64,000 bases of DNA from a virus, in the IMG/VR virus record IMGVR_UViG_3300047476_001831, positions 18,086 through 82,085 of that record, one strand, 5' to 3'. The position numbers and the translations under genes are program-made. The notes under the pieces were generated by a model. That model was not told where the DNA came from. It saw only the letters and a list, made by a program, of their open reading frames with translations, and did no database searches. Positions 2,228 through 33,365 of this stretch are shown piece by piece (position 1 is the first letter of the stretch; the number at the start of each line of letters is the position of its first letter).

Positions 2228-3625
2228 ATGAACTTCATTGATGCTTTACAATCAGAGGATACTTTAACGGAAAACGGAATGGTAACAAATTCTTCAACTT
2301 TGAACGAATGTGTAAACCTATTCTTCACAATTGGTGCTATGAGAGGACAAGATAAGCAAAGACTTATTTCCACATTCTCAAAAGCATTCAATGAGAATCC
2401 GTTAACTGCATTGAAAATCTTATTTTGGGTTAGAGATGTAAGAGGTGGCGCAGGTGAAAGACAAATCTTCCGTGATATTCTAAAATATCTAGTGGAGAAT
2501 CATCCGAATGTAGTAAAACAAAACATTCAAGCAATACCACATTTTGGTAGATGGGATGACCTTTCAGTTCTTTTTGGTACCGAGTTGGAAGCTGATGCTA
2601 CCAATATGTTTGTAAGTGGTCTAATTGTAGAAAATGGACTATGTGCAAAGTGGATACCAAGAAAGGGTGTTATCTTCAATGCAATTAGAAAGGTATTGAA
2701 AACCACCCCTAAAAACCTTCGTAATCTGTTGGTAGGAATTTCTAATACTGTTGAGCAAAAGATGTGTGCTAACCAATGGAATGAGATTGAGTATGAAAAG
2801 ACTCCATCATTGGCTATGGGTAGATACACAAAGGCTTTTGCAAAACACGACTTAGGTGGTTTTACTGAGTATTTAAATAAGTTAAAAAAAGGAGAAACCA
2901 AAGTCAATGCGGGTGCTGTATATCCTTACAATGTGGTTCAAACAATGAATCAAGGTAGTTGGGAATTAGCAAACGAGCAATGGAAATCTTTACCAAACTT
3001 TATGGAAGGTACAACTGAAAGGATTTTACCTGTGGTTGATGTATCTGGGTCAATGGGTTCAGTAGTTTCTGGTAGTATAACTTGTCTAGATGTAGCAATT
3101 TCTTTGGGATTATATATCTCTGAAAGAAATGAAGGGGTGTTCAAAGATAGTTTCATTACTTTCTCTGAAAAACCTCAACTTCAAGTACTTTCAGGTTCAT
3201 TGAGAGAACGTTACAACCAAATGAGTCAAGCTGATTGGGGTATGAATACAAATCTTGAATTAGTATTTAATGTTGTCCTAAATCAAGCTTTGAAACACAA
3301 AGTTCTGCCTGAAGATATGCCTTCTAAAATATTGATTATGTCTGATATGGAATTTGACCAAGCTACAAGACAATCTGAAAGTGCGATACAGATGATTAGA
3401 AGACAATATGAAGAAAGTGGTTATTCACTACCACAAATCATATTTTGGAACATCCAATCTAGGGGAGGAAACTTCCCAGTAAGACATAATGAATCGGGGA
3501 CTGCATTAATCTCAGGACTTTCACCAAGTATTGTAAAGTCAGTATTGGGTGGAAAAGAGATGACACCAATATCTATTATGAATGAGACAATCAATTCAGA
3601 AAGATATTCAATCATCGAGATGTAA
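2228..3625 (+). CDS. DUF2828-family protein (TROVE/Ro60-like helical domain plus vWA domain)
   Basis: TENG, RDVRGGAGER, GRWDDL, AKWIPR, MIDAS-like DVSGSM, SDMEFD and IIFWN motifs. Confidence 0.85.
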   Translation: MNFIDALQSEDTLTENGMVTNSSTLNECVNLFFTIGAMRGQDKQRLISTFSKAFNENPLTALKILFWVRDVRGGAGERQIFRDILKYLVENHPNVVKQNIQAIPHFGRWDDLSVLFGTELEADATNMFVSGLIVENGLCAKWIPRKGVIFNAIRKVLKTTPKNLRNLLVGISNTVEQKMCANQWNEIEYEKTPSLAMGRYTKAFAKHDLGGFTEYLNKLKKGETKVNAGAVYPYNVVQTMNQGSWELANEQWKSLPNFMEGTTERILPVVDVSGSMGSVVSGSITCLDVAISLGLYISERNEGVFKDSFITFSEKPQLQVLSGSLRERYNQMSQADWGMNTNLELVFNVVLNQALKHKVLPEDMPSKILIMSDMEFDQATRQSESAIQMIRRQYEESGYSLPQIIFWNIQSRGGNFPVRHNESGTALISGLSPSIVKSVLGGKEMTPISIMNETINSERYSIIEM

Positions 3626-3633
3626 AAGAAAAA

Positions 3634-3778
3634 GGAAAAATTGGTTCATAAAGAATGATTCCTGCAAACTAACAAACATTGAATCATTTATATAAGAACC
3701 GAGTTGGTTTACTCATTTTCCCAATCGCAAGGGAATAAATAAAAAAATCAAAAAACTCATTCTGAGACCAATTTTTCC
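3634..3778 (+). ncRNA. Structured RNA repeat unit 1 downstream of DUF2828 gene
   Basis: 12-bp outer stem GGAAAAATTGGT/ACCAATTTTTCC; inner GAATGA/TCATTC; TTCCTGCAAAC motif. Confidence 0.6.
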
Positions 3779-3829
3779 ATTTTTCTTTACTTAATGAAAC
3801 TTTTTAATTAATTTAGCGTTATATAGAAC

Positions 3830-3889
3830 AAAGGATAGATTCAGCAAACTATAAATCAAAACTTGTAAATTTGAAAAAAACTATCCTGA
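3830..3889 (+). ncRNA. Structured RNA repeat unit 2
   Basis: GGATAG/CTATCC stem, TTCAGCAAAC motif, internal hairpin with CTTGTAA loop. Confidence 0.6.
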
Positions 3890-3902
3890 CAATTTAGGTA
3901 AT

Positions 3903-3956
3903 AACGAATGGGTTCAGCAATTGACTTTTGAATGCAAACCAAAAAAACCATTCCGA
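3903..3956 (+). ncRNA. Structured RNA repeat unit 3
   Basis: GAATGG/CCATTC stem, TTCAGCAA motif, A-run before 3' strand. Confidence 0.55.
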
Positions 3957-4002
3957 ACCAAACTTTTTAATAATTTAGTAATACTTATATACAAATAAAA
4001 CA

Positions 4003-4098
4003 ATGAGAAACTCAATCAATCATATTAGTAAGTCAGTACAGCCGCAATTTAGCAATTGTTGGTCGACTAATCCGTATGGTTCAGATAGAGTGTCGTAA
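4003..4098 (+). CDS. Putative attenuator leader peptide (31 aa, MRNSINHISKSVQPQFSNCWSTNPYGSDRVS)
   Basis: Short ORF ending TAA TAG about 30 nt before a terminator whose 5' arm is complementary to the ORF 3' end. Confidence 0.6.
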   Translation: MRNSINHISKSVQPQFSNCWSTNPYGSDRVS

Positions 4099-4127
4099 TA
4101 GGTATAAAGTAATAATTTTTATATGAG

Positions 4128-4158
4128 ACCCTGAACCAAAAAAGTTTAGGGTTTTTTT
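4128..4158 (+). terminator. Intrinsic terminator/attenuator upstream of the first tRNA cluster
   Basis: ACCCTGAAC/GTTTAGGGT stem followed by T-tract. Confidence 0.75.
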
Positions 4159-4159
4159 G

Positions 4160-4172
4160 TGTTCTTTGACAT
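4160..4172 (+). promoter_or_regulatory. boxA-like antitermination/processing element
   Basis: TGTTCTTTGACAT resembles rrn boxA (TGCTCTTTAACA) just before tRNA-Gln. Confidence 0.5.
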
Positions 4173-4188: not shown

Positions 4189-4261
4189 TCCCCCTTGGTA
4201 TAATGGTTGATTACATCAGATTTTGATTCTGAGGATGGTGGTTCGATTCCATCAGGGGGAA
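4189..4261 (+). tRNA. trnQ: tRNA-Gln(UUG)
   Basis: Cloverleaf, anticodon loop TT-TTG-AT. Confidence 0.93.
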
Positions 4262-4281
4262 CTTAAAAAAATTACAAAACA

Positions 4282-4313
4282 TTTGGAAATATCAAAAATT
4301 GATTGTAGTTTTG
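4282..4313 (+). promoter_or_regulatory. Bacteroidota-type housekeeping promoter
   Basis: TTTG...TAGTTTTG; similar TTTGGAAAT-led copies at 4831, 7569 and 12433. Confidence 0.65.
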
Positions 4314-4390
4314 TGGAAGAGTAAGGAAAGGTCGTAGGTAGCACTGTCCACAACCAGCCTTAAACGTGGTGGATACTTACTCTAATTTAT

Positions 4391-4466
4391 GGTGGGATTG
4401 CCAAGTTGGTCAAGGCGAATGGCTGAAGATCATTTAATGTAGGTTCGATTCCTACTCCCACCACCA
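4391..4466 (+). tRNA. trnF: tRNA-Phe(GAA)
   Basis: Cloverleaf, CT-GAA-GA, encoded CCA. Confidence 0.93.
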
Positions 4467-4473
4467 AACAAAT

Positions 4474-4548
4474 GTGGTATGTACCCCAACTGGTAGAGGG
4501 GCATCATTGTGGATGATGTATGTGTGGGTTCAAATCCCATCATACCAC
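4474..4548 (+). tRNA. trnH: tRNA-His(GUG)
   Basis: Cloverleaf, TT-GTG-GA, G-1:C73 pair. Confidence 0.93.
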
Positions 4549-4558
4549 CAAACAAATT

Positions 4559-4641
4559 GGAAGAGGTCCGAATGGACGAGGACACTGTCTTGAAAACAGC
4601 TGGGCGTAATTGCTTTGGGGGTTCGATTCCCTTCTCTTCCG
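4559..4641 (+). tRNA. trnS: tRNA-Ser(UGA)
   Basis: CT-TGA-AA, long variable arm, G73. Confidence 0.92.
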
Positions 4642-4654
4642 CAACTTATAAAAT

Positions 4655-4726
4655 GTCTCTATGGTGAAAAGGCAATCACACTTGACTGTTAATCAAGTAT
4701 TCCTGGTTCGAGTCCAGGTGGGGACG
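4655..4726 (+). tRNA. trnN: tRNA-Asn(GUU)
   Basis: Cloverleaf, CT-GTT-AA. Confidence 0.93.
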
Positions 4727-4735
4727 CAACTTTTT

Positions 4736-4808
4736 AGTCCCATAGTTCAACGGATTAGAACCTATCACTACGGATGATAAGATACCTGTTCGAATCGGGT
4801 TGGGACTA
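4736..4808 (+). tRNA. trnR: tRNA-Arg(ACG)
   Basis: Cloverleaf, CT-ACG-GA. Confidence 0.92.
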
Positions 4809-4887
4809 CAAAAAAAAACTTTACTTATTATTTGGAAATAAGAAAAACAAATTGTAGTTTTACATAACAATAAAAAATAATAAAAAA

Positions 4888-5040
4888 ATGAGAAATTTAA
4901 TGTTCATCTTGGTTTTCGGTTTTGTACTTAGTATTCTATTACCTCTTCCAAAATTAATAGGCACACCTATGACACTTGTTGTTTTAGGTTTGATTTTGGG
5001 AGTAGTGTCAATTTTAGAAAACACAAGAAAAAAAGTTTAA
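4888..5040 (+). CDS. Small two-helix membrane protein (50 aa)
   Basis: MRNLMFILVFGFVLSILLPLPKLIG...; promoter at 4831. Confidence 0.6.
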   Translation: MRNLMFILVFGFVLSILLPLPKLIGTPMTLVVLGLILGVVSILENTRKKV

Positions 5041-5046
5041 TCAATT

Positions 5047-5131
5047 GGAGGGTAAAGTAATCAGGGTCATTACCACCGCCTGCTAAGCGAGTGATACCAA
5101 TAGGTATGTGTTTCGAGTACACTGTCCTCCA
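5047..5131 (+). tRNA. trnS: tRNA-Ser(GCU), atypical D/T arms
   Basis: CT-GCT-AA, long variable arm, TTCGAGT. Confidence 0.8.
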
Positions 5132-5145
5132 CAAAAAATTAAAAA

Positions 5146-5295
5146 ATGTTATTAATTATTGGTCTTTTATTTTTGATAATTGGAGTAATCTTATTAGTTT
5201 TGTCTTTCATCAAAAGAAACTCGGATTTGTTTGTAATAGGATTTATATTTCTAATCGTTCTTTTGTTGGGAATTATTTATGGTTTAATAATATAG
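5146..5295 (+). CDS. Small two-helix membrane protein (49 aa)
   Basis: MLLIIGLLFLIIGVILLVLSFIKRNSDLFVIG... Confidence 0.55.
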   Translation: MLLIIGLLFLIIGVILLVLSFIKRNSDLFVIGFIFLIVLLLGIIYGLII

Positions 5296-5368
5296 GGGTG
5301 TAGCTCAGTTGGTTAAGAGTACTAGTTTTGGGAACTAGTGGTCGCAGGTTCGAGCCCTGTCACCCCTA
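5294..5368 (+). tRNA. trnP: tRNA-Pro(UGG)
   Basis: Cloverleaf, TT-TGG-GA. Confidence 0.94.
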
Positions 5369-5378
5369 CAATACATTT

Positions 5379-5453
5379 TGTCCTGTAACTCAGTTGGTTT
5401 AGAGTACTACGCTGATACCGTAGGTGCCGTGGGTTCAAGTCCCACCAGGACAA
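5379..5453 (+). tRNA. trnI: tRNA-Ile(GAU)
   Basis: Cloverleaf, CT-GAT-AC. Confidence 0.93.
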
Positions 5454-5477
5454 CTATTTTTTTAATACTTAAAAATT

Positions 5478-5882
5478 ATGAATCAAGAATTTGTACCCTT
5501 TGAAGAATCCTTGGAATTAAAAGAAATGGGATTTGATGAATTATGTTTTGGATATTACTCGAATGGTCAAATAACGAATGTTGACTTGAATTGGGTAAGT
5601 ACTTCAATCAATCCCCCCACTTTAATTGATGGTGGATTCTATAGTATGAAAAATAGTGACACCACTAATGAACTTAATTGCACTGCACCAATCTATTCAC
5701 AAGTATTCCATTGGTTTATGGAAACCCATAAAATAGATTCCAGTGTGATGGAAATGAAGTTTGTGATTGAGTCTGATGAAGATTTACCGAAATGGTTTTA
5801 TGGGTTCAATAATTATGACGAAACAAAATTAGGATGTTTAAGACAATTAATTAGAAAGGTTAAAAAAAATGGAAAGGGTTAA
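5478..5882 (+). CDS. Phage hypothetical protein
   Basis: ORF; LELKEMGFDE..APIYSQVFHWF. Confidence 0.7.
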   Translation: MNQEFVPFEESLELKEMGFDELCFGYYSNGQITNVDLNWVSTSINPPTLIDGGFYSMKNSDTTNELNCTAPIYSQVFHWFMETHKIDSSVMEMKFVIESDEDLPKWFYGFNNYDETKLGCLRQLIRKVKKNGKG

Positions 5883-6126
5883 AATTGGTGAATACAAAAT
5901 TGGGGATAATTTGATTATCGAATTTGGTGAAAACAATCCCAACAATAAGGAAGTTCAGGTTAGAGCGATAGTTGATATGGAGGTTGTAATTTTATTGGAT
6001 AAGAATCAAAATTATTTAATGGAAACAGTAAAATATATGAATCTTTTATGTAGATTTGGGAACGTTATTCGTGAAAAGAATGATGTGAGATTTCAAACCG
6101 AATTAATTCACGACCCAAGAATCTAA
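5869..6126 (+). CDS. Hypothetical protein
   Basis: ORF overlapping upstream stop. Confidence 0.65.
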   Translation: MERVKIGEYKIGDNLIIEFGENNPNNKEVQVRAIVDMEVVILLDKNQNYLMETVKYMNLLCRFGNVIREKNDVRFQTELIHDPRI

Positions 6127-6129
6127 ATT

Positions 6130-6426
6130 ATGCTAAAAAGAATTATCAAAAGGAGTACTTGTAAGTTTTACGAATCAATTAGAAACCGATTTAATATGGA
6201 GTGTGTGTTGAGAGAAGGTGATTATGTTTATGATATTGAGGATGGGAGTGAATGGTTGTTATTGGAAAATCCCAATAAAGGTGGTTCGGCAAAAAGTATT
6301 TGTACATTTGCGCCTGAAGGTTGTGTGTATAAAATAGGAACACCATTCAAAAGATGTTATTTTGATGAGTTTGGTAAATTGAGAAAATACCTCAAAAGAG
6401 GTATGAACCCAGAAAGAAATTTTTAA
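6130..6426 (+). CDS. Hypothetical protein
   Basis: ORF. Confidence 0.6.
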   Translation: MLKRIIKRSTCKFYESIRNRFNMECVLREGDYVYDIEDGSEWLLLENPNKGGSAKSICTFAPEGCVYKIGTPFKRCYFDEFGKLRKYLKRGMNPERNF

Positions 6427-6431
6427 TTAAT

Positions 6432-6506
6432 GACCCTGTGGCTTAGCTGGTTTAAAGCACAATACTTTTAATATTGGGATCGGGAGTTCGAATCTCCCCA
6501 GGGTCA
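6432..6506 (+). tRNA. trnK: tRNA-Lys(UUU)
   Basis: Cloverleaf, CT-TTT-AA. Confidence 0.94.
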
Positions 6507-6731
6507 CTTAGGTATAGTTTGGATTATTAATCCCATTGAACTTGCGGTTACTTTATATGTGAATAATGAAGGGGTAAAATTAATACCCATTTGTTTGAAA
6601 TCGAAAACTTCGAATTCTTGTTCCTCATAAACTCCAACAATCGAACTTGTTTCGTTATTGATGTATAAGGAATCAAAGGTTTTTAAGTTTATTACTAAAC
6701 CTATTTCAACTGGGGGGATAAGTATTGTCAT
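6504..6731 (-). CDS. Hypothetical protein, antisense within tRNA region
   Basis: ORF preceded by ATATTTAT motif on minus strand. Confidence 0.55.
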   Translation of the reverse strand: MTILIPPVEIGLVINLKTFDSLYINNETSSIVGVYEEQEFEVFDFKQMGINFTPSLFTYKVTASSMGLIIQTIPK

Positions 6732-6775
6732 TTAATGGTTTTGTTAAATAAATATTGAATTTAAATTAAATTTTT

Positions 6776-7459
6776 ATGTCAACAACTTGGAATGAAATTT
6801 GGAAAAATAGGAAGGTAGAATTTGATTCGTTGGATTATTCTAATTTATTGAAACTGAATGGTTATGATGGTCCTCAAAGTAATCTAACTCCACAAAATTT
6901 AAATCTAGCTCATAAGATTTATGCGGAAAAAATGAATTTAAAACCTAATCAGAGTATTTTTGAGGTTGGTTGTGGGGCAGGTTCTTTCCTGTACAATTGG
7001 TATAATAGTGGACATAAAGTTGGTGGATGTGACATATCTAAAAACTTATTGGAATGTACAAAAAAAATCTTACCAAGAGGTGAATGGTATTTAGCTTCAG
7101 ATAGTGAATTTGAAAAAGAGCCTAAATGGGATCACTTGGTATCTTTTGGTGTGTGTATGTATTTAACACCAAGAGAGGTTTTGAATTTAATCGATAGAAT
7201 GATAAATAAAGCGAATTTTAGTGTATCATTATTCGAAATCTCTGATTTAGACAAGATGATAGATTGTGAAAAAGAAAGAAGAAGAATGATTCCTAATTAT
7301 GAGGTTAAATACAAAGACTTAAACCATTTTTATCATAGTAAAAATGATATTTCTGAACATTTAAATAAGTTAGGTTTAAATTATACCATTTATGATCAAT
7401 ACATACCTGGTTATGAAAATTCTAAATGGAGATTTAATGTAACTATTAATTTGGTTTGA
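6776..7459 (+). CDS. Class I SAM-dependent methyltransferase
   Basis: IFEVGCGAG motif I, GCDIS motif. Confidence 0.85.
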   Translation: MSTTWNEIWKNRKVEFDSLDYSNLLKLNGYDGPQSNLTPQNLNLAHKIYAEKMNLKPNQSIFEVGCGAGSFLYNWYNSGHKVGGCDISKNLLECTKKILPRGEWYLASDSEFEKEPKWDHLVSFGVCMYLTPREVLNLIDRMINKANFSVSLFEISDLDKMIDCEKERRRMIPNYEVKYKDLNHFYHSKNDISEHLNKLGLNYTIYDQYIPGYENSKWRFNVTINLV

Positions 7460-7473
7460 TTAATATAAATTCT

Positions 7474-7548
7474 ACTTCCTTAGCTCAGTTGGTTTAGAGT
7501 AACATCCTTACAAGGTGAAGGTCATTGGTTCGAATCCAATAGGAAGTA
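7474..7548 (+). tRNA. trnV: tRNA-Val(UAC)
   Basis: Cloverleaf, CT-TAC-AA. Confidence 0.92.
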
Positions 7549-7609
7549 CAAAAAAACTTTACAAAGTGTTTGGAAATATGAAAAACAAGTTGTAAGTTTG
7601 TAAGACACT

Positions 7610-7685
7610 AGTTTTGTAGCTTAATGTGTGAAAGCGTTCAATGGGTAACTGTTGAAAGATTTAGGTTAGAATCCTGTCAGGACTA
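7610..7685 (+). ncRNA. tRNA-like RNA with anticodon loop replaced by GTAA tetraloop
   Basis: Acceptor AGTTTTG/CAGGACT, D-arm GCTT/AAGC, 8-bp arm TTCAATGG-GTAA-CTGTTGAA, T-loop TTAGAAT; promoter 7569-7600. Confidence 0.65.
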
Positions 7686-7887
7686 CAAAAAAAATGTACC
7701 TCGATGCCTCTCATAAGAACGGCACACTAGCAGAGGTCTTGTTGCTTGTAAACGAATAGCCCAAGGTATAAGTTAGGAAGCTTAACTCAACCTATCCCCC
7801 ACTGACGAGTGGGGTGAAGTTGGGGGATTAAAAAGAAATATTATATATCTGCAATATATAAAATTCATTAACTTAAAAACAATCAAT

Positions 7888-8853
7888 ATGAAAAAATTAA
7901 CTTTATTTATTTTAATCAATTTTTTTTTAAACAATTTTAATTGTTACTCTCAAATAAAAACTTTAGAAGTCAGTAAACAAAAAGAAATTTTAGATACAAT
8001 AACATATGACAGCTCAAAAAATTTTTTAGGCGAGAATGTTTATATGTATAAAAATCAAGAATTATATGTAATGCCACAACACCCTAGTTTAAGGAAATAT
8101 GGGTATAGTTATTTTTACACTGACTATAAAAAGGAGGTAAAATACAAGTGTTGTGATGGTATTGGTTCAAAATATAGTGATTTAGTTGGTCAATATTTTC
8201 TTGTCGTAGATATAATAAAAATAGAAAAATCTGTTGATGATATTGTAGATACCGATAAGTTTTACCTCAAATTAAGGAATAAAAAAACATCTGAAATACT
8301 ATACTTCAAATATAACACCAAATATGAATCTGATTTTCCTTTTTTAGTTGTTGGATATTATGAAAAACAAAATGAAATTAATGTTGGTAAAGAAATTATT
8401 CTAAAAAATGGAAAATGGTTAGAAATATGGTATGGTAAAGGAGAACCAATAATAGATTTAAAGACCGGTAGTATTTTGAATATTCAACAAGGTAGTAAAT
8501 GGAAATGTGTAAATGTTATGGTTGAGGAGAAATGTTTTACTTTTGCTATGATTTTAGAAAATAATTTAGGACACACAATATTTTTACCATTATCATCATA
8601 TAATAAACCAAGTTTCAAGATACAATGGGGAATATATAATCCGATAGAGGTAAAAAATTATATTGAAAGATTTGGTGTTGAGAATTGGGAAATAATTTTG
8701 AATAGTGAAATAAAAATTGGATTTACTGAAGAAATGGTTAAACTTGCTTGGGGGTTACCTAAAAAAATAAACAGAACGTCTGGTTTGGATCAATGGGTTT
8801 ATGAAAATCAATATCTTTACTTTAACAATGGTAAATTAGAAGCGTATAATTAA
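7888..8853 (+). CDS. Secreted hypothetical protein (signal peptide)
   Basis: Signal peptide ending YSQ; C-terminal IGFTEEMVKLAWGLP..QWVY. Confidence 0.7.
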   Translation: MKKLTLFILINFFLNNFNCYSQIKTLEVSKQKEILDTITYDSSKNFLGENVYMYKNQELYVMPQHPSLRKYGYSYFYTDYKKEVKYKCCDGIGSKYSDLVGQYFLVVDIIKIEKSVDDIVDTDKFYLKLRNKKTSEILYFKYNTKYESDFPFLVVGYYEKQNEINVGKEIILKNGKWLEIWYGKGEPIIDLKTGSILNIQQGSKWKCVNVMVEEKCFTFAMILENNLGHTIFLPLSSYNKPSFKIQWGIYNPIEVKNYIERFGVENWEIILNSEIKIGFTEEMVKLAWGLPKKINRTSGLDQWVYENQYLYFNNGKLEAYN

Positions 8854-8863
8854 TTATAAAATT

Positions 8864-8948
8864 GGTCGGGTGGCCGAGTTGGTTAAGGCAATAGTCTGCA
8901 AAACTATCGAAAAACATTTCATCGTGGGTTCAAGTCCCACCCCGACCT
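8864..8948 (+). tRNA. trnC: tRNA-Cys(GCA) with long variable arm
   Basis: CT-GCA-AA, U73; 16-nt variable region with GAAA/TTTC stem. Confidence 0.88.
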
Positions 8949-9000
8949 CAAAAAATAGTTCAGTTAGTTATTTTTACTCATTTTGTTGATATTTATATAT

Positions 9001-9732
9001 ATGAAATGGAATGATAACGATATTGAAAAATTGATTGATTTAGTTAATCAAGGATTAAAACCGAATAGGATTGCTGAGATTTTTGGGGTTTCGTATAAAA
9101 CGATAACTAACAAAATGTTTAGGATGGGTTTACAAGTAATTTATACGACAAATAAAACTTGTAAAAATTGTGGTAATAGTTTTGAATCTTATTTGAGTAA
9201 AAACAAATTGTTTTGTAATTCATCTTGTTCAACGACATTCAATAATAAAAATCGTAAACATACTGAAGAAACTAAAAATAAAATTGCAAAAACCCTAAAG
9301 AATAAGCCAACTAAACCTAAAGTTAAAAAAATCAAAACTTGTAGGATTTGTAATAACGAGGTTGTTGAAAAATATAAGATTGTTTGTGAAGATTGTAGAT
9401 TGGAGTATTATCAATATTATAGACCTTCTTGTACTTTTCAGTTTGATGTAAAAGATTATCCACAAGAATTTGATTTGAGTTTAATTGAACAACATGGATG
9501 GTATTCTCCAACAAATAAAAAAAATAATTTAGGGGGTGTCACAAAAGACCATAAATATTCAGTGATGGAGGGTTTTAGAAATAAGATAGACCCAAGTATT
9601 TTATCACATCCTGTAAATTGTAAATTACTTTTATTTTCAGAGAATTCATCCAAAAATGATAAATCATCATTAACCTTAAATGAACTACTTGAAAATATTG
9701 AAATTTGGAATAAAAAATACGGAAATAGTTAA
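9001..9732 (+). CDS. Free-standing homing endonuclease-like protein (Zn finger, NUMOD3-like, HNH-like)
   Basis: CxxC pairs, KHTEETKNKIA, DHKYS...HPVNC...ENSSKN; likely start 9001. Confidence 0.7.
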   Translation: MKWNDNDIEKLIDLVNQGLKPNRIAEIFGVSYKTITNKMFRMGLQVIYTTNKTCKNCGNSFESYLSKNKLFCNSSCSTTFNNKNRKHTEETKNKIAKTLKNKPTKPKVKKIKTCRICNNEVVEKYKIVCEDCRLEYYQYYRPSCTFQFDVKDYPQEFDLSLIEQHGWYSPTNKKNNLGGVTKDHKYSVMEGFRNKIDPSILSHPVNCKLLLFSENSSKNDKSSLTLNELLENIEIWNKKYGNS

Positions 9733-9760
9733 AAGTTATTATTATCTTTACATAACATAT

Positions 9761-9835
9761 GGGGATGTAGCTCAATTGGTTTAGAGTGGTGGTCTCCAAA
9801 ACCACAGGTTATAGGTTCGAGTCCTATCGTCCTCG
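9761..9835 (+). tRNA. trnW: tRNA-Trp(CCA)
   Basis: Cloverleaf, CT-CCA-AA. Confidence 0.94.
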
Positions 9836-9849
9836 CAAAACTTAAAAAA

Positions 9850-10050
9850 ATGAAAGAAATTAAATACAGATTTTTGTTAACTTTTTATTCGGCTTTTATT
9901 TTTTTTCTAATTATGATTCCACAGATTCTAATTAGTAAACACATTTTTAATTTGAAATTTAATGAATATCTAATGTGGGGTGTTTTATATATCTCATATG
10001 ATTTCACAACAAAATTTATTTTACCCAAGAAAAAGAAAAAAGATATTTAA
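9850..10050 (+). CDS. Small membrane protein
   Basis: Two hydrophobic helices. Confidence 0.6.
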   Translation: MKEIKYRFLLTFYSAFIFFLIMIPQILISKHIFNLKFNEYLMWGVLYISYDFTTKFILPKKKKKDI

Positions 10051-10051
10051 T

Positions 10052-10372
10052 ATGGTAAGGGATTACATAATCGAGACATTATTGAAAATAAAAGAACACG
10101 ATGAAAAGGTACATAAACTCTATACTCTCGGAGTTGATATTATTGACTTTGACAACTCCTTTTCGCAACTTGAAAAAAGTATTCCGACCTTACTCCGAAA
10201 AGAAAAAGACAAACAATTCGGATACATTCAGGACTTAGTTGGTTGGTGGTTATACGAAGATGTTGATAAAATAATTTATGTTGATGATATAGAGATTAAT
10301 GTTGACAAAGTCGTGGAATTTGTTGACTATTTATTAAGAGAGTATGGAACAAATGACATACCCACAAATTAG
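10052..10372 (+). CDS. Hypothetical protein (likely start MVRDY)
   Basis: ORF 9980..10372; ATG directly after upstream stop. Confidence 0.65.
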   Translation: MVRDYIIETLLKIKEHDEKVHKLYTLGVDIIDFDNSFSQLEKSIPTLLRKEKDKQFGYIQDLVGWWLYEDVDKIIYVDDIEINVDKVVEFVDYLLREYGTNDIPTN

Positions 10373-27227: not shown

Positions 27228-27608
27228 TGGTGGAGGCATAGGGAGTCGAACCCTTTCCTGTCCATCTTAACTATTAAGGACTACATGCTTAGGACAACAT
27301 TATTCACAATGTTCCGAGTTAGTTAATTTTTGATACCCCAAAATCAACAAAATCAGTCAATTCATTTTTAGGGATGAGAATTGATTAGACAACCCTATAG
27401 TACTTCTGTTCCTGAGTGAATGTACCCCGACTCGAAAGTAATGACCTATTGACTAGGCTACTACTGCTTCTTCAGCACGGATTAAACCTACTGCAGAAAG
27501 TTTGTTGATAACGTTGCCGTTTATCGTTTCAAACCAGTTTAACAGACTTAGTTTAGGTCTGGCATGCCCCAAATAACTAACTATGTCAGTCGATACCAAA
27601 TTGCCCCC
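27228..27608 (-). ncRNA. ssrA: tmRNA; tag (A)GNVINKLSAVGLIRAEEAVVA
   Basis: 5' GGGGGCA..TATCGAC, 3' GGGTTCGACTCCC-TATGCCTCCACCA, G3:U pair, resume context ATAAAC-GGC; tag 27518..27453. Confidence 0.93.
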
Positions 27609-29104: not shown

Positions 29105-29923
29105 ATGAAACACGATTACAATTTACTAAAAAAGGTTTTGTCCGTACCTACCAAGACATACAAAGAGGACTTAATGATTCAATTCCTTTGTGAATGGTTA
29201 ACAGAAAACAACATCCCATATAATGTTGATAAAATGGGTAATGTTTATGCGACCAAACAAACAGATGAAATTGAATACTTTCCTTGTGTTGTTGCTCACA
29301 CAGATACAGTCCACGAATTAGACACAATCAACATCCGAGAAATGATGTTACCCAACGACCAAAATGAATTAAAGATGGCGTTGAAAGCATTTAATGATGA
29401 AGGATTACCCACAGGAATTGGGGGTGATGATAAATGTGGTGTCTATGTATGTTTGGAACTATTAAAAAGTTTACCAAATATTAAAGCAGCTTTCTTTGTC
29501 TCAGAGGAAACTGGTTGTCACGGTTCAAGAAAGGCTGATAAAGATTTTTTCTCAAACGTTGGTTATGTACTACAATTTGACGCCCCAGGTAATTGGATGG
29601 TAAGTGAATATTGTATGGGTGTTAAACTTTTTGATAAAGAATCTGACTTTTTCAATAAATGTGACAAGGTATTAACTGAAGGTTTCAATAATAGAAACAA
29701 ATATCAGTCACATCCATACACAGATGTTTATGCACTTAAACAACAATTTGATTTTTCATGTATTAATTTTGCGGTTGGATATTATAACTATCATACTCCT
29801 CACGAGTATGTTATTGTTGATGATGTATTCAATACTTTGGATATTGCAAATAAAATGATTGGTGAATTGGGATGTGAAAAATATGAAAAGAAGTTAGAAT
29901 CAAGAGGAAATTCAATCCTTTAA
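29105..29923 (+). CDS. M20/M28-family zinc peptidase
   Basis: AHTDTVH, GGDDKCG, SEETG, YHTPHE. Confidence 0.85.
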   Translation: MKHDYNLLKKVLSVPTKTYKEDLMIQFLCEWLTENNIPYNVDKMGNVYATKQTDEIEYFPCVVAHTDTVHELDTINIREMMLPNDQNELKMALKAFNDEGLPTGIGGDDKCGVYVCLELLKSLPNIKAAFFVSEETGCHGSRKADKDFFSNVGYVLQFDAPGNWMVSEYCMGVKLFDKESDFFNKCDKVLTEGFNNRNKYQSHPYTDVYALKQQFDFSCINFAVGYYNYHTPHEYVIVDDVFNTLDIANKMIGELGCEKYEKKLESRGNSIL

Positions 29924-30434: not shown

Positions 30435-32465
30435 CTATTCAGTCCCTTTTTTCTTTTTAACCTTTTTAACTTCTTTTGGTTTGAAAATAACATTTTCTTC
30501 TTCTACTGTAAGTGTATATTCATCATTCTCAACTACATTTCCATTTAATACTTCCTCCGATATAAAATCTTCAATTTTATCTTGTATTGCACGTTTGATT
30601 GGTCTAGCTCCATAAGTTTCATCAAAACCTACTTTGGATATTAGTTCCAATACTTTTTCATCACAATTGATGTTATAATTTAAACCTTTCAATCTACTGA
30701 TTAATTTATCAATTTCTAGTTTAACTATTTGTTTAACTTCATCTTCTTTCAATGTGTTGAAAACAATAATTTCGTCAATACGATTTAAAAACTCAGGGGC
30801 AAAAAACTTTTTGAGTTCTTTTTTCAGAGTGTCTCTTTTTTGTTCCTCTTCAATATATGTGTTCGTCATTGTTTTAAATCCAACACCAGTCCCAAAGTCT
30901 TGTAATTTTTTAACACCCAAATTTGATGTCATAATAATGACACAATTTTTAAAGTTAATTTTTCTACCCAATCCATCAGTAAGATGTCCATCATCTAAAA
31001 CTTGGAGTAAGGTTGAAAATACATCTTTATTAGCCTTTTCAATTTCATCAAAAAGAATTACAGAATATGGTTTATTTTTAACTTGTTCTGTTAATTGTCC
31101 CCCTTCATCATAACCAACATAACCAGGAGGTGAACCAATCAATCTTGATATTGTGTGTTTTTCTTGGAACTCTGACATATCTACACGAATAAGATTATCT
31201 TCACTTCCAAAGATTTCTTTTGCTAATTGTTTTGCAAGATAAGTTTTACCCACACCTGTTGACCCTAAGAAAATAAATGAACCAATTGGTTTAGATGGGT
31301 CTTTAATACCTAATCTGTTTCTTCTTATGGCTTTAGCTATTTTAGAAACAGCTTCAGACTGACCAATTACTTTTGAAGATAGATTTTCATCTAATGAAGA
31401 TAATTTATTGGTTTCATCTGAACTCATTTTTGATACAGGTATTTTAGTCATATTAGATACTACTTCATATACTAATTCAGAACTAACCTCTTTTTTCTTA
31501 TGTAATAAATCAAATTCAAATTTCTTTTTTTCATCTTCCAATCTATCTAAGATTTTTGTTTCCTTGTCTCTTAAATCTGCAGCTAATTCGTAGTTTTGAG
31601 TTTTAACAACCTCAATCTTTTCTTGTTTGATTCGTTGTGCTTGAAGTTTTAAATCTTCAATAACTTGGGGCATTTTGATTTCAACTTGACTTCTTGCCCC
31701 AACTTCATCAATAATATCAAATGCTTTATCTGGGAACTCTCTGTCTGTGATATATCTTTCCGCTAAATCAACACATAATTTTAAAACCTCATCGGTATAA
31801 CTTACTTTGTGGTAATTTTCATATTTTTCTTTAACATTGATAAGGATTTGTAATGTTTCATCTTTTGATGATGGGTCAACAATTACTTTTTGGAAACGTC
31901 TTTCTAATGCCCCATCTTTTTCAAAGTTCTTTCTATATTCATCTAGTGTTGTTGCACCAATACATTGGATTTCACCCCTTGCCAAAGCTGGTTTGAATAT
32001 GTTTGATGCGTCTAAAGAACCTGAAGAATTACCAGCACCTACTATTTGATGGATTTCATCTATAAATAATATAATATTTGGGGCTGATTGTAACTCTTCA
32101 ATAATTACTTTCATTCTTTCTTCAAATTGGCCACGATACTTAGTTCCAGCAACAATTGAAGTCATATCCAAAGACATAATTCTCTTATCCATTAGATTTC
32201 TTGGACATTCACCATTCAATATTTTTAGTGCTAATCCTTCAACAATTGCAGTTTTACCACAACCTGGTTCACCAATTATAATTGGGTTGTTTTTCTTTCT
32301 TCTTGATAAGATTTGTGCAATCCTTGTGATTTCTCTATCACGACCTACAACCGGGTCAAGTTTTCCTTCTTCAGCAAGTTTTACCAAATCTTTTGCAAAG
32401 TTATTTAGTACTGGTGTATCACCCTTACCTTTACTTGAGTAATCTCCATCTTTAGAATCTATCAT
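30435..32465 (-). CDS. clpC: ClpC-like AAA+ chaperone lacking the N-terminal Clp repeat domain
   Basis: Walker A GEPGCGKT and GSTGVGKT, UVR middle domain, GVGF loop. Confidence 0.9.
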   Translation of the reverse strand: MIDSKDGDYSSKGKGDTPVLNNFAKDLVKLAEEGKLDPVVGRDREITRIAQILSRRKKNNPIIIGEPGCGKTAIVEGLALKILNGECPRNLMDKRIMSLDMTSIVAGTKYRGQFEERMKVIIEELQSAPNIILFIDEIHQIVGAGNSSGSLDASNIFKPALARGEIQCIGATTLDEYRKNFEKDGALERRFQKVIVDPSSKDETLQILINVKEKYENYHKVSYTDEVLKLCVDLAERYITDREFPDKAFDIIDEVGARSQVEIKMPQVIEDLKLQAQRIKQEKIEVVKTQNYELAADLRDKETKILDRLEDEKKKFEFDLLHKKKEVSSELVYEVVSNMTKIPVSKMSSDETNKLSSLDENLSSKVIGQSEAVSKIAKAIRRNRLGIKDPSKPIGSFIFLGSTGVGKTYLAKQLAKEIFGSEDNLIRVDMSEFQEKHTISRLIGSPPGYVGYDEGGQLTEQVKNKPYSVILFDEIEKANKDVFSTLLQVLDDGHLTDGLGRKINFKNCVIIMTSNLGVKKLQDFGTGVGFKTMTNTYIEEEQKRDTLKKELKKFFAPEFLNRIDEIIVFNTLKEDEVKQIVKLEIDKLISRLKGLNYNINCDEKVLELISKVGFDETYGARPIKRAIQDKIEDFISEEVLNGNVVENDEYTLTVEEENVIFKPKEVKKVKKKKGTE

Positions 32466-32635
32466 AATTTGTTTTTACTTAATAATAATATTTTATTCAA
32501 TATTTTCAACTGGTTATACTATGACAAAATGTCAGTGTAATTTTTAATAAAACTGACAATCTTGATTATTTTATATAAATGGTATATTATTCGTGTTATA
32601 GAAATTAAAATAAACTTTAAAACAAAAATATTAAT

Positions 32636-33079
32636 ATGTCAAACAGAGATTTTTTAAAAAAATTTGATGAAATTTTACAAGAGATTTTTGGCGAGGTTAA
32701 GGGTAACCCATCAACACCATTTCAAAGTTTTTCTGACAACCTAAATTATGATAATTTAAATTCAGATTTCAGTAAGTTTAGAAATTCTGTAAGAAAAACA
32801 AAAGATGGAATTGTTACAACAATTTATTATGTAATTGGTGATGATAATAAATGGACTTCAGCTAATGATAACAATCTTAAAAATTTACAAAAAGAATTAG
32901 ATGAGTGTATTAAAAATGAGGATTTTGAAAAAGCTGTCGTGTTACGTGACAAAATAAAGAATTTTAAAAATAACTCAACCAAAATTGAAAATTTGAAAAA
33001 AGAGATGGATATTGCAATTAAAGAACAAAACTTTGAAAAAGCAATTGAAATCAGAGATGAATTAAAAAAAATAAATTAA
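32636..33079 (+). CDS. Tandem UVR (UvrB/UvrC motif) protein
   Basis: Two E.FEKA...RD..K repeats. Confidence 0.8.
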   Translation: MSNRDFLKKFDEILQEIFGEVKGNPSTPFQSFSDNLNYDNLNSDFSKFRNSVRKTKDGIVTTIYYVIGDDNKWTSANDNNLKNLQKELDECIKNEDFEKAVVLRDKIKNFKNNSTKIENLKKEMDIAIKEQNFEKAIEIRDELKKIN

Positions 33080-33122
33080 CCCTAACCCCCATTGAACTTG
33101 GGGGTTTTAAATTTAAAATATT

Positions 33123-33365
33123 ATGGCAATAATAAGAGAACAAATTAATGGTACTAAAATCATCAATGAAATTCAGTCTAGTAATATTAGAAAAACTGAG
33201 TTTGATACTGAAACAAAAGAGTTAGTTGTGGAATTTAACAACGGACTAAGATATTCTTATGAAAATGTACCCCATCAAGTTTATACACAATTCAGAATGT
33301 CAGAATCTCAAGGTAAGTATTTTAATTCCAAAATTGCAAAGACTTATAAATACAAAAAGTTATGA
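33123..33365 (+). CDS. KTSC-domain protein
   Basis: SSNI...LVVEFNNG..Y.Y.NVP..VY....S.GKYFNSKI. Confidence 0.88.
   Translation: MAIIREQINGTKIINEIQSSNIRKTEFDTETKELVVEFNNGLRYSYENVPHQVYTQFRMSESQGKYFNSKIAKTYKYKKL

What the first reader, a model, noticed from the sequence alone, without database searches (positions are those of the whole stretch)
2228..33365. Integrated phage translation-rescue toolkit
Seen together: a TROVE-like protein with RNA repeats, attenuator-controlled tRNAs for all amino acids, three anticodon-less tRNA mimics, a cyclic-phosphate receiver domain, an ArfA-like peptide, tmRNA, ClpC with a UVR partner and a KTSC protein. Known: host anticodon nucleases leave 2',3'-cyclic phosphates and stall ribosomes. 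Inference: a layered counter-defence that senses stalling, replaces tRNAs, decoys nucleases, rescues ribosomes and degrades tagged products.
Basis: inference. Interest (0 to 1): 0.7.

Follow-up and report, generated by a model that had tools for sequence, protein, structure and literature searches.

The report
Phage tRNA island with Ro-like RNP
A freshwater jumbo phage carries a full tRNA set, a tmRNA, a Ro60-like protein with its own small RNAs, and chaperones; these are separate modules rather than one wired defence kit, but the Ro-like protein and RNA pair recurs beside tRNA clusters in many unrelated phages and seems undescribed.

Summary
Most listed parts are real. They are a DUF2828/DUF7788 protein with a full-length Ro60/TROVE fold, three structured RNA units after it, 25 tRNAs covering all 20 amino acids, a cREC domain, a tmRNA, an N-domain-less ClpC-like ATPase, a tandem-UVR protein and a KTSC protein.

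Some parts are not supported:
- No ArfA-like peptide was found.
- The attenuators are unproven.
- Two of the three "anticodon-less mimics" look like decayed tRNA copies.

The claim of one integrated, layered counter-defence is not supported. The parts are scattered among about 37 unrelated genes on both strands. They assort largely independently across 16 phage records. No RtcB, Rnl2, CCA enzyme or ClpP was found in about 650 kb of related records, and the Rnl1 search was uninformative.

Sub-modules do hold:
- The RNA hairpin (7-bp stem plus UU[A/C]CAGCAA) accompanies DUF2828 in nine phage lineages, often inside tRNA clusters. It shows strong covariation and has no Rfam match.
- cREC lies 1-2 kb from tRNA genes in four lineages.
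- A relative encodes SmpB.

The general idea is already published (Iyer 2021). The DUF2828-RNA-tRNA linkage looks new. Earlier scan notes concern this same genome only.

The parts
2228..3625 (+). DUF2828/DUF7788 protein (465 aa) with a Ro60/TROVE-like HEAT ring plus vWA domain
   Evidence: Pfam. The AF2 model matches Ro60 structures over its full length, E 2.5e-10. There are 709 phage records with homologues, some annotated 'Ro-like RNA-binding protein'.
3634..3778 (+). RNA unit 1: outer 12-bp stem enclosing a long-insert copy of the CAGCAA hairpin (core 3650-3766)
   Evidence: Sequence. Conserved in relatives. Motif scan. Fold z-score -2.1.
3830..3890 (+). RNA unit 2: 7-bp stem, unpaired UUCAGCAA, A-rich 3' strand, then stem' followed by UGA
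   Evidence: CM R1 scores 59.6 bits. Covariation.
3903..3957 (+). RNA unit 3, same architecture
   Evidence: CM R1 scores 46 bits. The stem change GG/CC to GA/TC in relatives is compensated.
4003..4101 (+). 31-codon small ORF ('leader 1'), a real small gene in some relatives
   Evidence: In L002-L004 an 11-residue block is kept with only synonymous changes. L005/7/8 carry a different gene here instead.
4125..4162 (+). Intrinsic terminator; its 5' arm can alternatively pair with 4077-4084
   Evidence: Strongest terminator-like site in 2000-19600, with 12 pairs. Sequence.
4189..18486 (+). tRNA island: 25 tRNA genes in two groups, covering all 20 amino acids and interspersed with protein genes
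7610..7686 (+). tRNA-like sequence with an 8-bp anticodon stem, a 4-nt loop and a degenerate T loop; probably a decayed tRNA copy
   Evidence: Rfam tRNA model scores 43.5 bits. Fold. Not conserved in relatives.
12232..12425 (+). Second small ORF (23 codons) with a sigma70-like promoter and a terminator, followed at 12433-12463 by a Bacteroidota-type promoter for ORF 12468-12947
   Evidence: Alignment with 3 relatives. Promoter pattern.
13346..13474 (+). tRNA-shaped RNA with a 66-nt structured insert in place of the anticodon loop
   Evidence: Cloverleaf-like MFE. 83% conserved in L006, with a compensated acceptor pair.
15843..15957 (+). tRNA-Leu-like D and T arms around a 63-nt centre with acceptor mismatches; probably a decayed copy
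   Evidence: Fold z-score +0.4. Not conserved. Alignment.
17265..18316 (+). tRNA-Leu(UAA) interrupted in the anticodon loop by about 967 nt carrying an HNH ORF (17356-18219)
   Evidence: ARAGORN in relaxed mode. HNH Pfam hits. The exons match the intact tRNA of L006.
19535..19963 (+). cREC (cyclic-phosphate-processing receiver) domain protein, 142 aa, 1 kb after the last tRNA
   Evidence: PF20274 E 1.2e-22. Homologues lie next to tRNA genes in immuto, KVP40 and T5.
27228..27608 (-). tmRNA; its 21-aa tag ends AVVA
   Evidence: RF00023 scores 99.8 bits. Tag. The tag region is 100% identical in 3 relatives.
29105..29923 (+). M42/M28/M20-like metallopeptidase between the tmRNA and the Clp gene
   Evidence: Pfam, weak hits. 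Syntenic in G001 and G003.
30435..32465 (-). ClpC-like double AAA+ unfoldase: no N-domain, a short UVR-type middle domain, and a G-V-G-F loop
   Evidence: Pfam. NCBIfam scores are below the ClpB and ClpA cut-offs. Sequence.
32636..33079 (+). 147-aa protein with two UVR motifs
   Evidence: PF02151 E 7e-19 with 2 stretches. Weak match to the C-terminus of McsA.
33123..33365 (+). KTSC-domain protein, 80 aa
   Evidence: PF13619 E 2.8e-18.
33400..34146 (+). Uncharacterised pol-beta-type nucleotidyltransferase, 248 aa; not a recognised CCA enzyme
   Evidence: PF01909 E 5.8e-4. The Atlas clusters are virus-only. PolyA_pol is absent.

Best explanation
The stretch is the accessory RNA and translation region of a freshwater jumbo phage. 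The contig is 27% complete by CheckV, and the promoters are of Bacteroidota type. It holds several separately inherited modules that act in parallel to keep phage translation running whatever the state of the host. It is not one wired system.

Module 1 (best supported):
- A complete tRNA set replaces host tRNAs lost to host shut-off or to tRNA-targeting defence.
- It is genetically coupled to a Ro60-like ring protein (DUF2828) and that protein's cognate small hairpin RNAs.
- The RNAs are transcribed with, or between, tRNAs and are probably released by tRNA-processing enzymes.
- By analogy with Ro60 and Y RNA, this RNP would bind misfolded or damaged RNA ends, or gate a host nuclease.
- In some phages the same hairpin sits over the gene's own ribosome-binding site and would autoregulate it.
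- The cREC phosphoesterase at the edge of the island would open 2',3'-cyclic phosphate ends.

Module 2: the tmRNA, with an SmpB gene in a closely related contig that reaches beyond the upstream end of this one, rescues stalled ribosomes and tags the products.

Module 3: a ClpC-like unfoldase, a tandem-UVR protein, KTSC, a peptidase and an upstream DnaK handle protein quality.

Shown: the gene and RNA identities, the protein fold, RNA covariation, and synteny and co-occurrence. Inferred: every biochemical role and any link to defence.
For: Phage identity:
- Terminase, portal and capsid are present. The contig is 27% complete and comes from freshwater metagenomes.
- The pattern TTTG-N18-21-TAnnTTTG occurs 14 times against 4.85 expected. 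Sigma70-like sites are not enriched.

Ro-like protein and its RNA:
- The fold matches Ro60.
- The RNA motif has 27 copies, 96% paired against 36-50% in slid controls, with 59 double-sided changes.
- CM hits lie beside DUF2828 or inside the adjacent tRNA cluster, on the same strand, in the window family, G004, G006 (9 copies), G007, KVP40/VH7D, A511, Campylobacter F360, Felix-O1-like UAB_Phi87 and Bacillus PBC2.
- About 1.6 Mb of DUF2828-negative phages gave one weak hit.
- No Rfam family covers the units.

Linkage to tRNA genes:
- tRNA genes lie within about 5 kb of DUF2828 in 8 of 10 lineages examined.
- cREC lies 1-2 kb from tRNA genes in the window, immuto, KVP40 and T5. In Aeromonas phage 65 it lies beside a CCA enzyme and an HD hydrolase.

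tmRNA:
- SmpB is present in relative G002.
- The tag-coding region is invariant.

Other:
- DnaK lies upstream.
- Phage tRNAs defeat tRNA nucleases in experiments (PMC11464382, PMC11555353).
Against: - No expression or binding data exist. The RNA-library contigs laid on the stretch come from about 90%-identical relatives and cannot show transcription.
- The contig is a fragment, so gene absences are provisional.
- LR756508 and mycobacteriophage LeBron carry DUF2828 but gave no CM hit.
- cREC sits in an NAD+ context in RaK2.
- The seed units for the CM were picked partly by their stems, which inflates the covariation figures somewhat.
Confidence: 0.6

Rival explanations
1. All parts form one integrated, layered counter-defence against anticodon nucleases. 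Leader-peptide attenuators sense stalling and switch on the tRNAs. Anticodon-less tRNA mimics decoy the nucleases. cREC reads cyclic-phosphate ends. ArfA and tmRNA rescue ribosomes. ClpC with its UVR partner degrades the tagged products.
For: - All parts but ArfA exist.
- Both small ORFs end next to a segment that can pair with the 5' arm of the terminator.
- Close relatives G001 and G003 keep the whole set in the same order.
- LR745206 has cREC, tRNAs and a ClpC-like gene within 10 kb.
- Phage tRNAs do counter tRNA nucleases (PMC11464382, PMC11555353).
Against: - ArfA is absent.
- The parts assort independently across lineages: KVP40, A511 and G006 have DUF2828 without tmRNA, Clp or KTSC. T5 and immuto have cREC only. 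Bxz1 has tmRNA only.
- UVR and KTSC are not beside the Clp gene in the huge phages.
- No RtcB, Rnl2, CCA enzyme or ClpP in any of the five related records. A PNK-like (AAA_33) kinase is absent from G000-G003 and present only in G004. The Rnl1 search was uninformative, because its controls did not ring.
- The second 'attenuator' is followed by its own promoter and an ORF.
- The first is replaced by another gene in three relatives.
- A leader 'listing' the tRNAs has no discriminating power when all 20 amino acids are covered.
- Two of the three mimics are unconserved and flawed.
- Synteny among 82-93%-identical relatives is descent, not linkage.
Confidence: 0.1
2. The CAGCAA hairpins are mainly cis-acting operators on the DUF2828 mRNA (translational autoregulation). 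They are not trans-acting Y-RNA-like partners.
For: - In KVP40 one unit encloses the Shine-Dalgarno sequence in its loop, and its 3' stem strand overlaps the start codon.
- In L014, L009, L015, A511, F360 and PBC2 the units lie directly upstream of the gene.
Against: - In the window family and in UAB_Phi87 the units lie downstream of the stop codon.
- Copies sit between tRNA genes far from the gene's start in KVP40/VH7D, L015, L014 and UAB_Phi87.
- Up to nine tandem copies exceed what an operator needs.
- The two roles can coexist.
Confidence: 0.25
3. The block of ClpC-like ATPase, UVR protein, KTSC and peptidase, together with DnaK, serves phage protein folding, assembly or remodelling of the host proteome. 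It is unrelated to the tmRNA or to tRNA damage. Its nearness to the tmRNA is incidental.
For: - DnaK is encoded by the same phage.
- Clp-type ATPases occur in huge phages without an adjacent tmRNA, UVR or KTSC gene.
- KTSC occurs in small phages (43-51 kb).
- No phage ClpP was found.
- In the bacteria studied, ssrA tags are handled mainly by ClpXP (textbook knowledge).
Against: - The tmRNA and the Clp gene share the minority (minus) strand 3 kb apart, and this arrangement is kept in G001 and G003.
- KTSC lies 450 nt upstream of the tmRNA in the distant phage G004.
- The G-V-G-F loop implies delivery to a (host) ClpP.
Confidence: 0.45

Closest known systems
Ro60 (TROVE)-Y RNA/YrlA ribonucleoproteins of bacteria and phages (PMC4201824; Thermus phage phiLo Ro60, PMC12135203)
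   Same: A ring-shaped HEAT plus vWA protein (fold match). The genes for small structured RNAs lie within a few kb on the same strand, often in several copies. There is also a link to tRNA biology.
   Different: - The protein belongs to Pfam DUF2828/DUF7788, and PDB sequence search finds nothing.
- The RNA is a simple 7-bp hairpin with an unpaired UU[A/C]CAGCAA. It lacks the bulged Y-RNA helix and the tRNA-like domain.
- The Rfam YrlA model does not hit the units.
- The units are embedded in phage tRNA clusters.
Jumbo-phage RNA repair and translation gene sets (Iyer et al. 2021, PMC7824862)
   Same: That paper already groups tRNAs, cRec, ROT/TROVE and KTSC as adaptations for RNA-level conflict in large phages.
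   Different: Those sets usually include RNA ligases, PNK or HAD phosphatases. None of RtcB, Rnl2 or a CCA enzyme was found here, and the Rnl1 search was uninformative. The paper does not describe a DUF2828-specific RNA or its tRNA-cluster linkage, as far as its text on TROVE goes.
Phage tRNAs that neutralise tRNA-cleaving defences (T5 tRNA versus PARIS, PMC11464382; retron effectors, PMC11555353)
   Same: A large phage-borne tRNA set that could replace cleaved host tRNAs.
   Different: Nothing here shows nuclease-resistant anticodon loops or any defence context. The host and its defences are unknown.
T4 Pnkp/Rnl1 healing-and-sealing of PrrC-cleaved tRNA-Lys (textbook)
   Same: Deals with 2',3'-cyclic phosphate ends on tRNA. 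cREC is predicted to act on such ends.
   Different: No kinase-phosphatase was found in this phage or its three close relatives, and no RtcB or Rnl2 ligase. The Rnl1 search was uninformative. The cREC activity is only predicted.
Phage-encoded tmRNAs (mycobacteriophage Bxz1 group; huge phages)
   Same: A standard one-piece tmRNA with a tag ORF.
   Different: The tag is long (21 aa) and ends AVVA. The lineage also encodes SmpB. The gene is on the minority strand near a Clp ATPase.
ClpC with adaptors MecA/McsB-McsA (Firmicutes)
   Same: A double AAA+ ATPase with a UVR-type middle domain and a ClpP loop. The neighbouring protein carries UVR motifs, as does the McsA C-terminus.
   Different: It lacks the N-domain that binds adaptors and phospho-arginine. 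There is no McsB and no zinc fingers. The partner relationship is untested.

Membership tests
Ro60/TROVE | HEAT-repeat ring plus C-terminal vWA/MIDAS domain | tested here: met
   The AF2 model (pLDDT 79, pTM 0.77) aligns over about 500 columns to 9kop, 9l5y, 1yvp and 2nvo, with E 2.5e-10 to 5e-5 and TM about 0.5.
Ro60/TROVE | Sequence-level match to the TROVE family or to solved Ro60 proteins | tested here: not met
   Pfam reports only DUF2828 and DUF7788 at E<=0.01. phmmer against the PDB finds no Ro60. NCBIfam finds nothing.
Ro60/TROVE | Adjacent Y RNA (YrlA-type: Ro-binding bulged helix plus tRNA-like domain) | tested here: not met
   The Rfam YrlA model gives only a 23.6-bit chance hit on a tRNA. 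The adjacent RNAs follow a different, simpler motif.
Ro60/TROVE | Binds its small RNA and misfolded RNA ends | not testable with these tools
   Needs EMSA or RIP.
tmRNA (trans-translation) | Covariance-model match with a tRNA-like domain and a CCA end | tested here: met
   RF00023 scores 99.8 bits against a gathering threshold of 47, covers the full model, and ends in CCACCA.
tmRNA (trans-translation) | In-frame tag reading frame with a stop codon | tested here: met
   A 21-codon tag aligned to the resume codon of the model. It is invariant in 3 relatives.
tmRNA (trans-translation) | SmpB partner | tested here: inconclusive
   None in this contig. PF01668 hits at E 5.9e-47 in relative G002, whose contig extends upstream beyond this one.
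ArfA | Match to the ArfA family or its basic KGKGS-type C-terminal motif | tested here: not met
   PF03889 has no match at E<=10. There is no motif in six frames and no candidate among the small ORFs at 25600-27720.
ClpC | Two AAA+ modules with a D2-small domain | tested here: met
   AAA, AAA_lid_9, AAA_2 and ClpB_D2-small.
ClpC | N-terminal Clp repeat domain (adaptor docking) | tested here: not met
   The protein starts about 40 residues before Walker A of D1, and there is no Clp_N hit.
ClpC | ClpP-binding loop and a ClpP partner | tested here: inconclusive
   The G-V-G-F loop is present after TSNLG in D2. No ClpP was found in five related phage records, and host ClpP is unknown.
cREC | Match to PF20274 with the acidic residues kept | tested here: met
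   E 1.2e-22. LDDER and FDHDLGD are present. The catalytic role itself is only a published prediction (PMC7824862).
Leader-peptide transcription attenuator | Short ORF, terminator and mutually exclusive antiterminator pairing | tested here: inconclusive
   The elements are present at 4003-4162 and 12232-12425. There is no covariation, the first is not universal among relatives, and the second does not directly precede tRNAs.
Leader-peptide transcription attenuator | Regulatory codons specific to the controlled product | tested here: not met
   The downstream set covers all 20 amino acids, so any leader would 'match'. No codon run is present.
RNA healing-and-sealing repair system | RNA ligase (RtcB, Rnl1 or Rnl2) with end-healing enzymes | tested here: not met
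   No RtcB and no Rnl2 in five records. AAA_33 is absent from G000-G003 and present only in G004. The Rnl1 search was uninformative because its controls did not ring. The contigs are fragments.
KTSC | Match to PF13619 | tested here: met
   E 2.8e-18, covering 58 of 58 model positions.

The most novel reading that the evidence does not exclude
DUF2828 proteins and the CAGCAA-hairpin RNAs form a previously undescribed Ro60/Y-RNA-like ribonucleoprotein found widely in phages. It occurs in phages of Bacteroidota, Vibrio, Salmonella, Campylobacter, Listeria and Bacillus. It is genetically tied to phage tRNA gene clusters. The RNAs would be cut out of tRNA precursor transcripts and loaded onto the ring to protect, proof-read or repair phage tRNAs, with cREC as a frequent third partner.
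Probability: 0.45. Interest if true: 0.8.

Novelty: new variant of a known kind. Interest (0 to 1): 0.55.

Why it matters
Large phages often carry tRNA islands whose accessory genes are unexplained. A Ro-like protein with a cognate RNA that travels with tRNA clusters in phages of very different hosts would give these islands a testable RNA-quality-control component. KVP40, A511 and Felix O1 relatives are all culturable, so the test is practical. It would also extend the Ro60-Y RNA principle to a second protein family. The broader 'toolkit' reading adds little to what is already published.

Tried and rejected
- Complex prediction of the ClpC-like fragment (residues 20-345) with the UVR protein gave no verdict, score 0.09. 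It says nothing either way.
- Megablast of the region against cultured phages found no match.
- phmmer of DUF2828 against the PDB found nothing useful.
- NCBIfam gave no names for DUF2828, cREC, the 466-aa, 157-aa or 163-aa proteins, or the NTase.
- Contigs from RNA-library runs were laid on 2228-5500. They come from about 90%-identical relatives and are contigs only, so they show neither transcription nor RNA ends. Parts without cover mean nothing.
- The Rnl1 family search was uninformative because nothing rang in the controls.
- The Rfam group I intron model did not hit the tRNA-Leu insertion. The insertion was verified through its exons instead.
- The 163-aa gene after cREC has a weak Pyr_excise hit and is not conserved next to cREC elsewhere.
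- I considered the 13346-13474 RNA as a YrlA-type Y RNA. There is no Rfam support.
- My first motif regex was too strict. I widened it.
- The literature has no relevant paper on DUF2828.


Full report
WHAT THE DNA IS

The window is 64 kb of a single 82,085-bp IMG/VR viral contig with no terminal repeat. CheckV rates it 27% complete, which implies a genome of roughly 300 kb. It encodes a large terminase, a portal and a major head protein. Its nearest cultured relatives by portal are Microcystis phage Mel-JY01 (41.5% identity) and Flavobacterium phage immuto (36%). Near-identical DNA occurs in freshwater metagenomes.

The Bacteroidota promoter pattern TTTG-N18-21-TAnnTTTG occurs 14 times against 4.85 expected, and none of 100 shuffles reached 14. 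Sigma70-like sites are not enriched, 84 against 86 expected. The repeats that stage one may have read as control elements (4263, 4812, 7550) fit this promoter pattern. A Bacteroidota host is likely.

CHECKING EACH LISTED PART

- **TROVE-like protein.** The protein at 2228-3625 is DUF2828 plus DUF7788 by Pfam. It has no sequence match in the PDB. An AlphaFold model built on eight homologues (pLDDT 79) matches Ro60/TROVE structures over its whole length: 9kop at E 2.5e-10, Thermus phage phiLo Ro60 (9l5y), Xenopus Ro (1yvp) and Deinococcus Rsr. 'TROVE-like' is therefore correct at the fold level.
- **tRNAs.** ARAGORN finds 22. Adding tRNA-Ser(UGA) at 4559-4640, tRNA-Ser(GCU) at 5047-5132 and a split tRNA-Leu(UAA) gives 25 genes for all 20 amino acids. 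The two exons of the split tRNA match the intact tRNA of relative L006 on either side of a roughly 967-nt insertion that carries an HNH ORF.
- **cREC.** The domain at 19535-19963 scores E 1.2e-22.
- **tmRNA.** It lies at 27228-27608 on the minus strand, scores 99.8 bits and has a 21-codon tag. The tag-coding part is identical in three relatives, while the flanks differ by about 10%.
- **Clp gene.** The protein (676 aa, minus strand) has both AAA+ modules, a weak UVR hit in the middle domain, no N-domain, and a G-V-G-F loop at the ClpP-loop position. It falls below NCBI's cut-offs for ClpB and ClpA.
- **UVR and KTSC.** The neighbour at 32636-33079 has two UVR motifs, and 33123-33365 is a KTSC protein.
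- **ArfA-like peptide.** This could not be found. The family HMM gives nothing at E<=10. There is no KGKGS-type motif in six frames. No small ORF near the tmRNA resembles ArfA.

THE 'ATTENUATORS'

At 4003-4101 a 31-codon ORF is followed by the strongest terminator of the region, at 4125-4155. An 8-nt segment near the end of the ORF can pair with the terminator's 5' arm. In relatives L002-L004 an 11-residue block of the peptide is kept with only synonymous changes, so this is a real small gene. In L005/7/8 a different gene occupies the site.

The second case (12232-12425) is 87-93% conserved in four relatives. It is followed by a Bacteroidota-type promoter and a 159-aa ORF before any tRNA.

A leader that 'lists' the downstream tRNAs means little when all 20 amino acids are covered. 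Attenuation is possible but unshown. I put it at about 25% for the first case and lower for the second.

THE 'ANTICODON-LESS MIMICS'

- **13346-13474.** It folds as a cloverleaf with a 66-nt structured insert in the anticodon arm. It is 83% conserved in L006, with a compensated acceptor pair.
- **7610-7686.** It scores as a tRNA (43.5 bits). It has an 8-bp stem, a 4-nt loop and a degenerate T loop.
- **15843-15957.** It has acceptor mismatches and no fold signal.

Neither of the last two is conserved in relatives, and they look like decaying tRNA copies. A decoy role is speculation.

IS IT ONE SYSTEM?

The named parts lie among about 37 other genes. These include a methyltransferase, a SET-domain protein, a GDSL hydrolase, HNH, two DUF4230 proteins, and M78, M23 and M42-like peptidases. 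The tmRNA and the Clp gene are on the opposite strand from almost everything else.

Close relatives G001 and G003 (82-92% identical proteins) keep everything in order, but that reflects common descent. Presence in a panel of 16 records:

| Record | DUF2828 | tmRNA | cREC | KTSC | Clp ATPase |
|---|---|---|---|---|---|
| G000, G001, G003 | + | + | + | + | + |
| G002 (upstream fragment; only the first ~118 aa of DUF2828, at the contig end) | + | - | - | - | - |
| G004 (246 kb) | + | + | + | + | - |
| KVP40 | + | - | + | - | - |
| G006 | + | - | - | - | - |
| G007 (56-kb fragment; permuted tmRNA by ARAGORN only) | + | + | - | - | - |
| A511 | + | - | - | - | - |
| LR756508 | + | + | + | - | + |
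| LR745206 | - | - | + | - | + |
| RaK2 | - | - | + | + | + |
| T5 | - | - | + | - | - |
| immuto | - | - | + | - | - |
| Bxz1 | - | + | - | - | - |
| Mel-JY01 (weak 29-bit AAA_2 hit only) | - | - | - | - | - |

Further points against a single system:
- In the huge phages the Clp homologue has no UVR or KTSC neighbour.
- Across the phage collection, DUF2828 occurs in 709 records, cREC in 141 and KTSC in 30, with largely different host genera.
- The check suggested by stage one came back negative. No RtcB, Rnl2, PolyA_pol-type CCA enzyme or ClpP was found in G000-G004. The AAA_33 kinase is absent from G000-G003.
- The Rnl1 search was uninformative, and all these records are fragments.

So the refutation condition of stage one, that 'components assort independently', is largely met for the set as a whole.

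WHAT DOES HOLD TOGETHER

*(i) The RNA units are a real, conserved motif tied to DUF2828.* Each unit has a 7-bp stem, an unpaired UU[A/C]CAGCAA directly after the 5' strand, a variable A-rich loop, the 3' strand, and then YG[A/U].

- Sixteen copies gave 94.6% pairing against 36-47% for slid controls.
- A covariance model then found 27 copies with 96.3% pairing, 59 double-sided changes, and six of seven pairs covarying.
- Whole-record searches put the hits beside DUF2828, or inside the adjacent tRNA cluster on the same strand, in G000, G001, G003, G004, G006 (nine copies), G007, KVP40 and A511. About 1.6 Mb of DUF2828-negative phages gave a single weak hit.
- Lineages outside the seed also carry it: Campylobacter phage F360 (E 6.7e-5, between tRNA-Met and the gene), Felix-O1-like UAB_Phi87 (four copies between tRNAs downstream of the gene, as in this window) and Bacillus phage PBC2 (directly upstream). 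Mycobacteriophage LeBron gave none.
- In KVP40 and VH7D one copy sits between tRNA-Trp and tRNA-Asn. Another encloses the gene's Shine-Dalgarno sequence and overlaps its start codon.
- No Rfam family covers any unit, and I found no paper describing it.
- Caveat: the seed copies were recognised partly by their stems.

*(ii) DUF2828 lies within about 5 kb of tRNA genes in 8 of the 10 lineages examined*.

*(iii) cREC lies 1-2 kb from tRNA genes in this phage, immuto, KVP40 and T5.* In KVP40 it is also 1.2 kb from DUF2828. In Aeromonas phage 65 it lies beside a CCA-adding enzyme and an HD hydrolase. In RaK2 it sits in an NAD+ context.

*(iv) The lineage has SmpB.* It is in G002, whose contig extends upstream beyond this one. 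KTSC lies 450 nt upstream of the tmRNA in the distant phage G004.

MECHANISM (INFERRED)

The tRNA island supplies a host-independent decoding set. Phage tRNAs have been shown to overcome tRNA-cleaving defences (PMC11464382, PMC11555353), but host shut-off or codon supply would explain the set equally well.

By analogy with Ro60 and Y RNA (PMC4201824, PMC12135203), the DUF2828 ring would bind the hairpin RNAs. These are co-transcribed with tRNAs and probably freed by tRNA-processing enzymes. The complex would then act on misfolded or damaged RNA ends, or on a host nuclease. Where a hairpin covers the ribosome-binding site it would also autoregulate the gene.

cREC may open cyclic-phosphate ends (a prediction from PMC7824862). 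tmRNA with SmpB rescues stalled ribosomes. The Clp, UVR, KTSC and DnaK genes (DnaK) handle proteins. A link between these and the phage tag is possible but untested.

COMPARISON AND NOVELTY

Grouping tRNAs, cRec, TROVE and KTSC as adaptations for RNA-level conflict in jumbo phages is already published (PMC7824862). Homologues of the DUF2828 protein are already annotated 'Ro-like RNA-binding protein', and LeBron gp53 is toxic when overexpressed (PMC13148394).

What appears new is the DUF2828-specific RNA motif and the recurrent three-way linkage of protein, RNA and tRNA cluster across phages of very different hosts. As a whole the finding is a new variant of a known kind. The integrated-toolkit reading is only partly supported.

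Noticed in passing
L001 (contig 1-18200, upstream of the window): 844-3449, 4774-5607(-), 5933-7798, 9997-11022(-): The phage also encodes two PAS/HATPase histidine-kinase-like proteins, a truncated class II aminoacyl-tRNA-synthetase-like protein (277 aa, AsnS/AsnA-like), a full-length DnaK (Hsp70, E 1e-258) and an IMPDH/GMP-reductase-like protein.
   Followed up: partly
L035:1471-2578 (G004, 224.8-225.9 kb): In a distantly related 246-kb phage, a KTSC gene lies about 450 nt upstream of the tmRNA. A coiled-coil ORF and a lipoprotein ORF lie between them. Its tag is 29 aa and ends LMAA.
   Followed up: partly
L013:9954-10000 (Vibrio phage KVP40): One copy of the CAGCAA hairpin holds the Shine-Dalgarno sequence of the DUF2828 gene in its loop. 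Its 3' stem strand overlaps the start codon, which suggests translational autoregulation.
   Followed up: partly
window 4003-4101: The 31-codon ORF is under protein-level constraint in three relatives: an 11-residue block has four synonymous and no replacement changes. Its C-terminal half is free to vary, and the peptide's function is unknown.
   Followed up: partly
window 15961-16170: A stretch of about 210 nt between a tRNA-like element and tRNA-Arg(UCU) is 79% conserved in relative L006, between tRNA-Thr and tRNA-Arg. It is a candidate ncRNA processed with the tRNAs.
   Followed up: no
L044:5197-5748(-) (Listeria phage A511): A ROOL RNA match (87.5 bits, just under the gathering score of 99.1) lies inside the tRNA region next to the DUF2828 gene and its hairpins.
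   Followed up: no
L051:119-226 (Bacillus phage PBC2): A weak YrlA-like match (37.8 bits against a gathering score of 69) lies inside the tRNA cluster upstream of DUF2828. The record annotates these tRNAs on the strand opposite to the one Rfam finds.
   Followed up: no
LR745206 413.6-425.3 kb (L038): In a 635-kb phage, cREC, three tRNA-like genes and the ClpC-like ATPase lie within about 11 kb of each other.
   Followed up: no
window 11019-11402 and 6776-7459: A SET-domain protein (E 4.6e-13) and a class I SAM methyltransferase sit inside the tRNA island.
   Followed up: no
window 20784-21991: Two tandem DUF4230 paralogues lie just downstream of cREC.
   Followed up: no
window 51436-57100(-): Two adjacent 939-aa ORFs on the minus strand have no PHROG match.
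   Followed up: no
window 3797-3820 and 3962-3985: A repeated AAACTTTTTAAT(T)AATTTAG element precedes RNA unit 2 and the small ORF. It is a possible phage-specific promoter.
   Followed up: no
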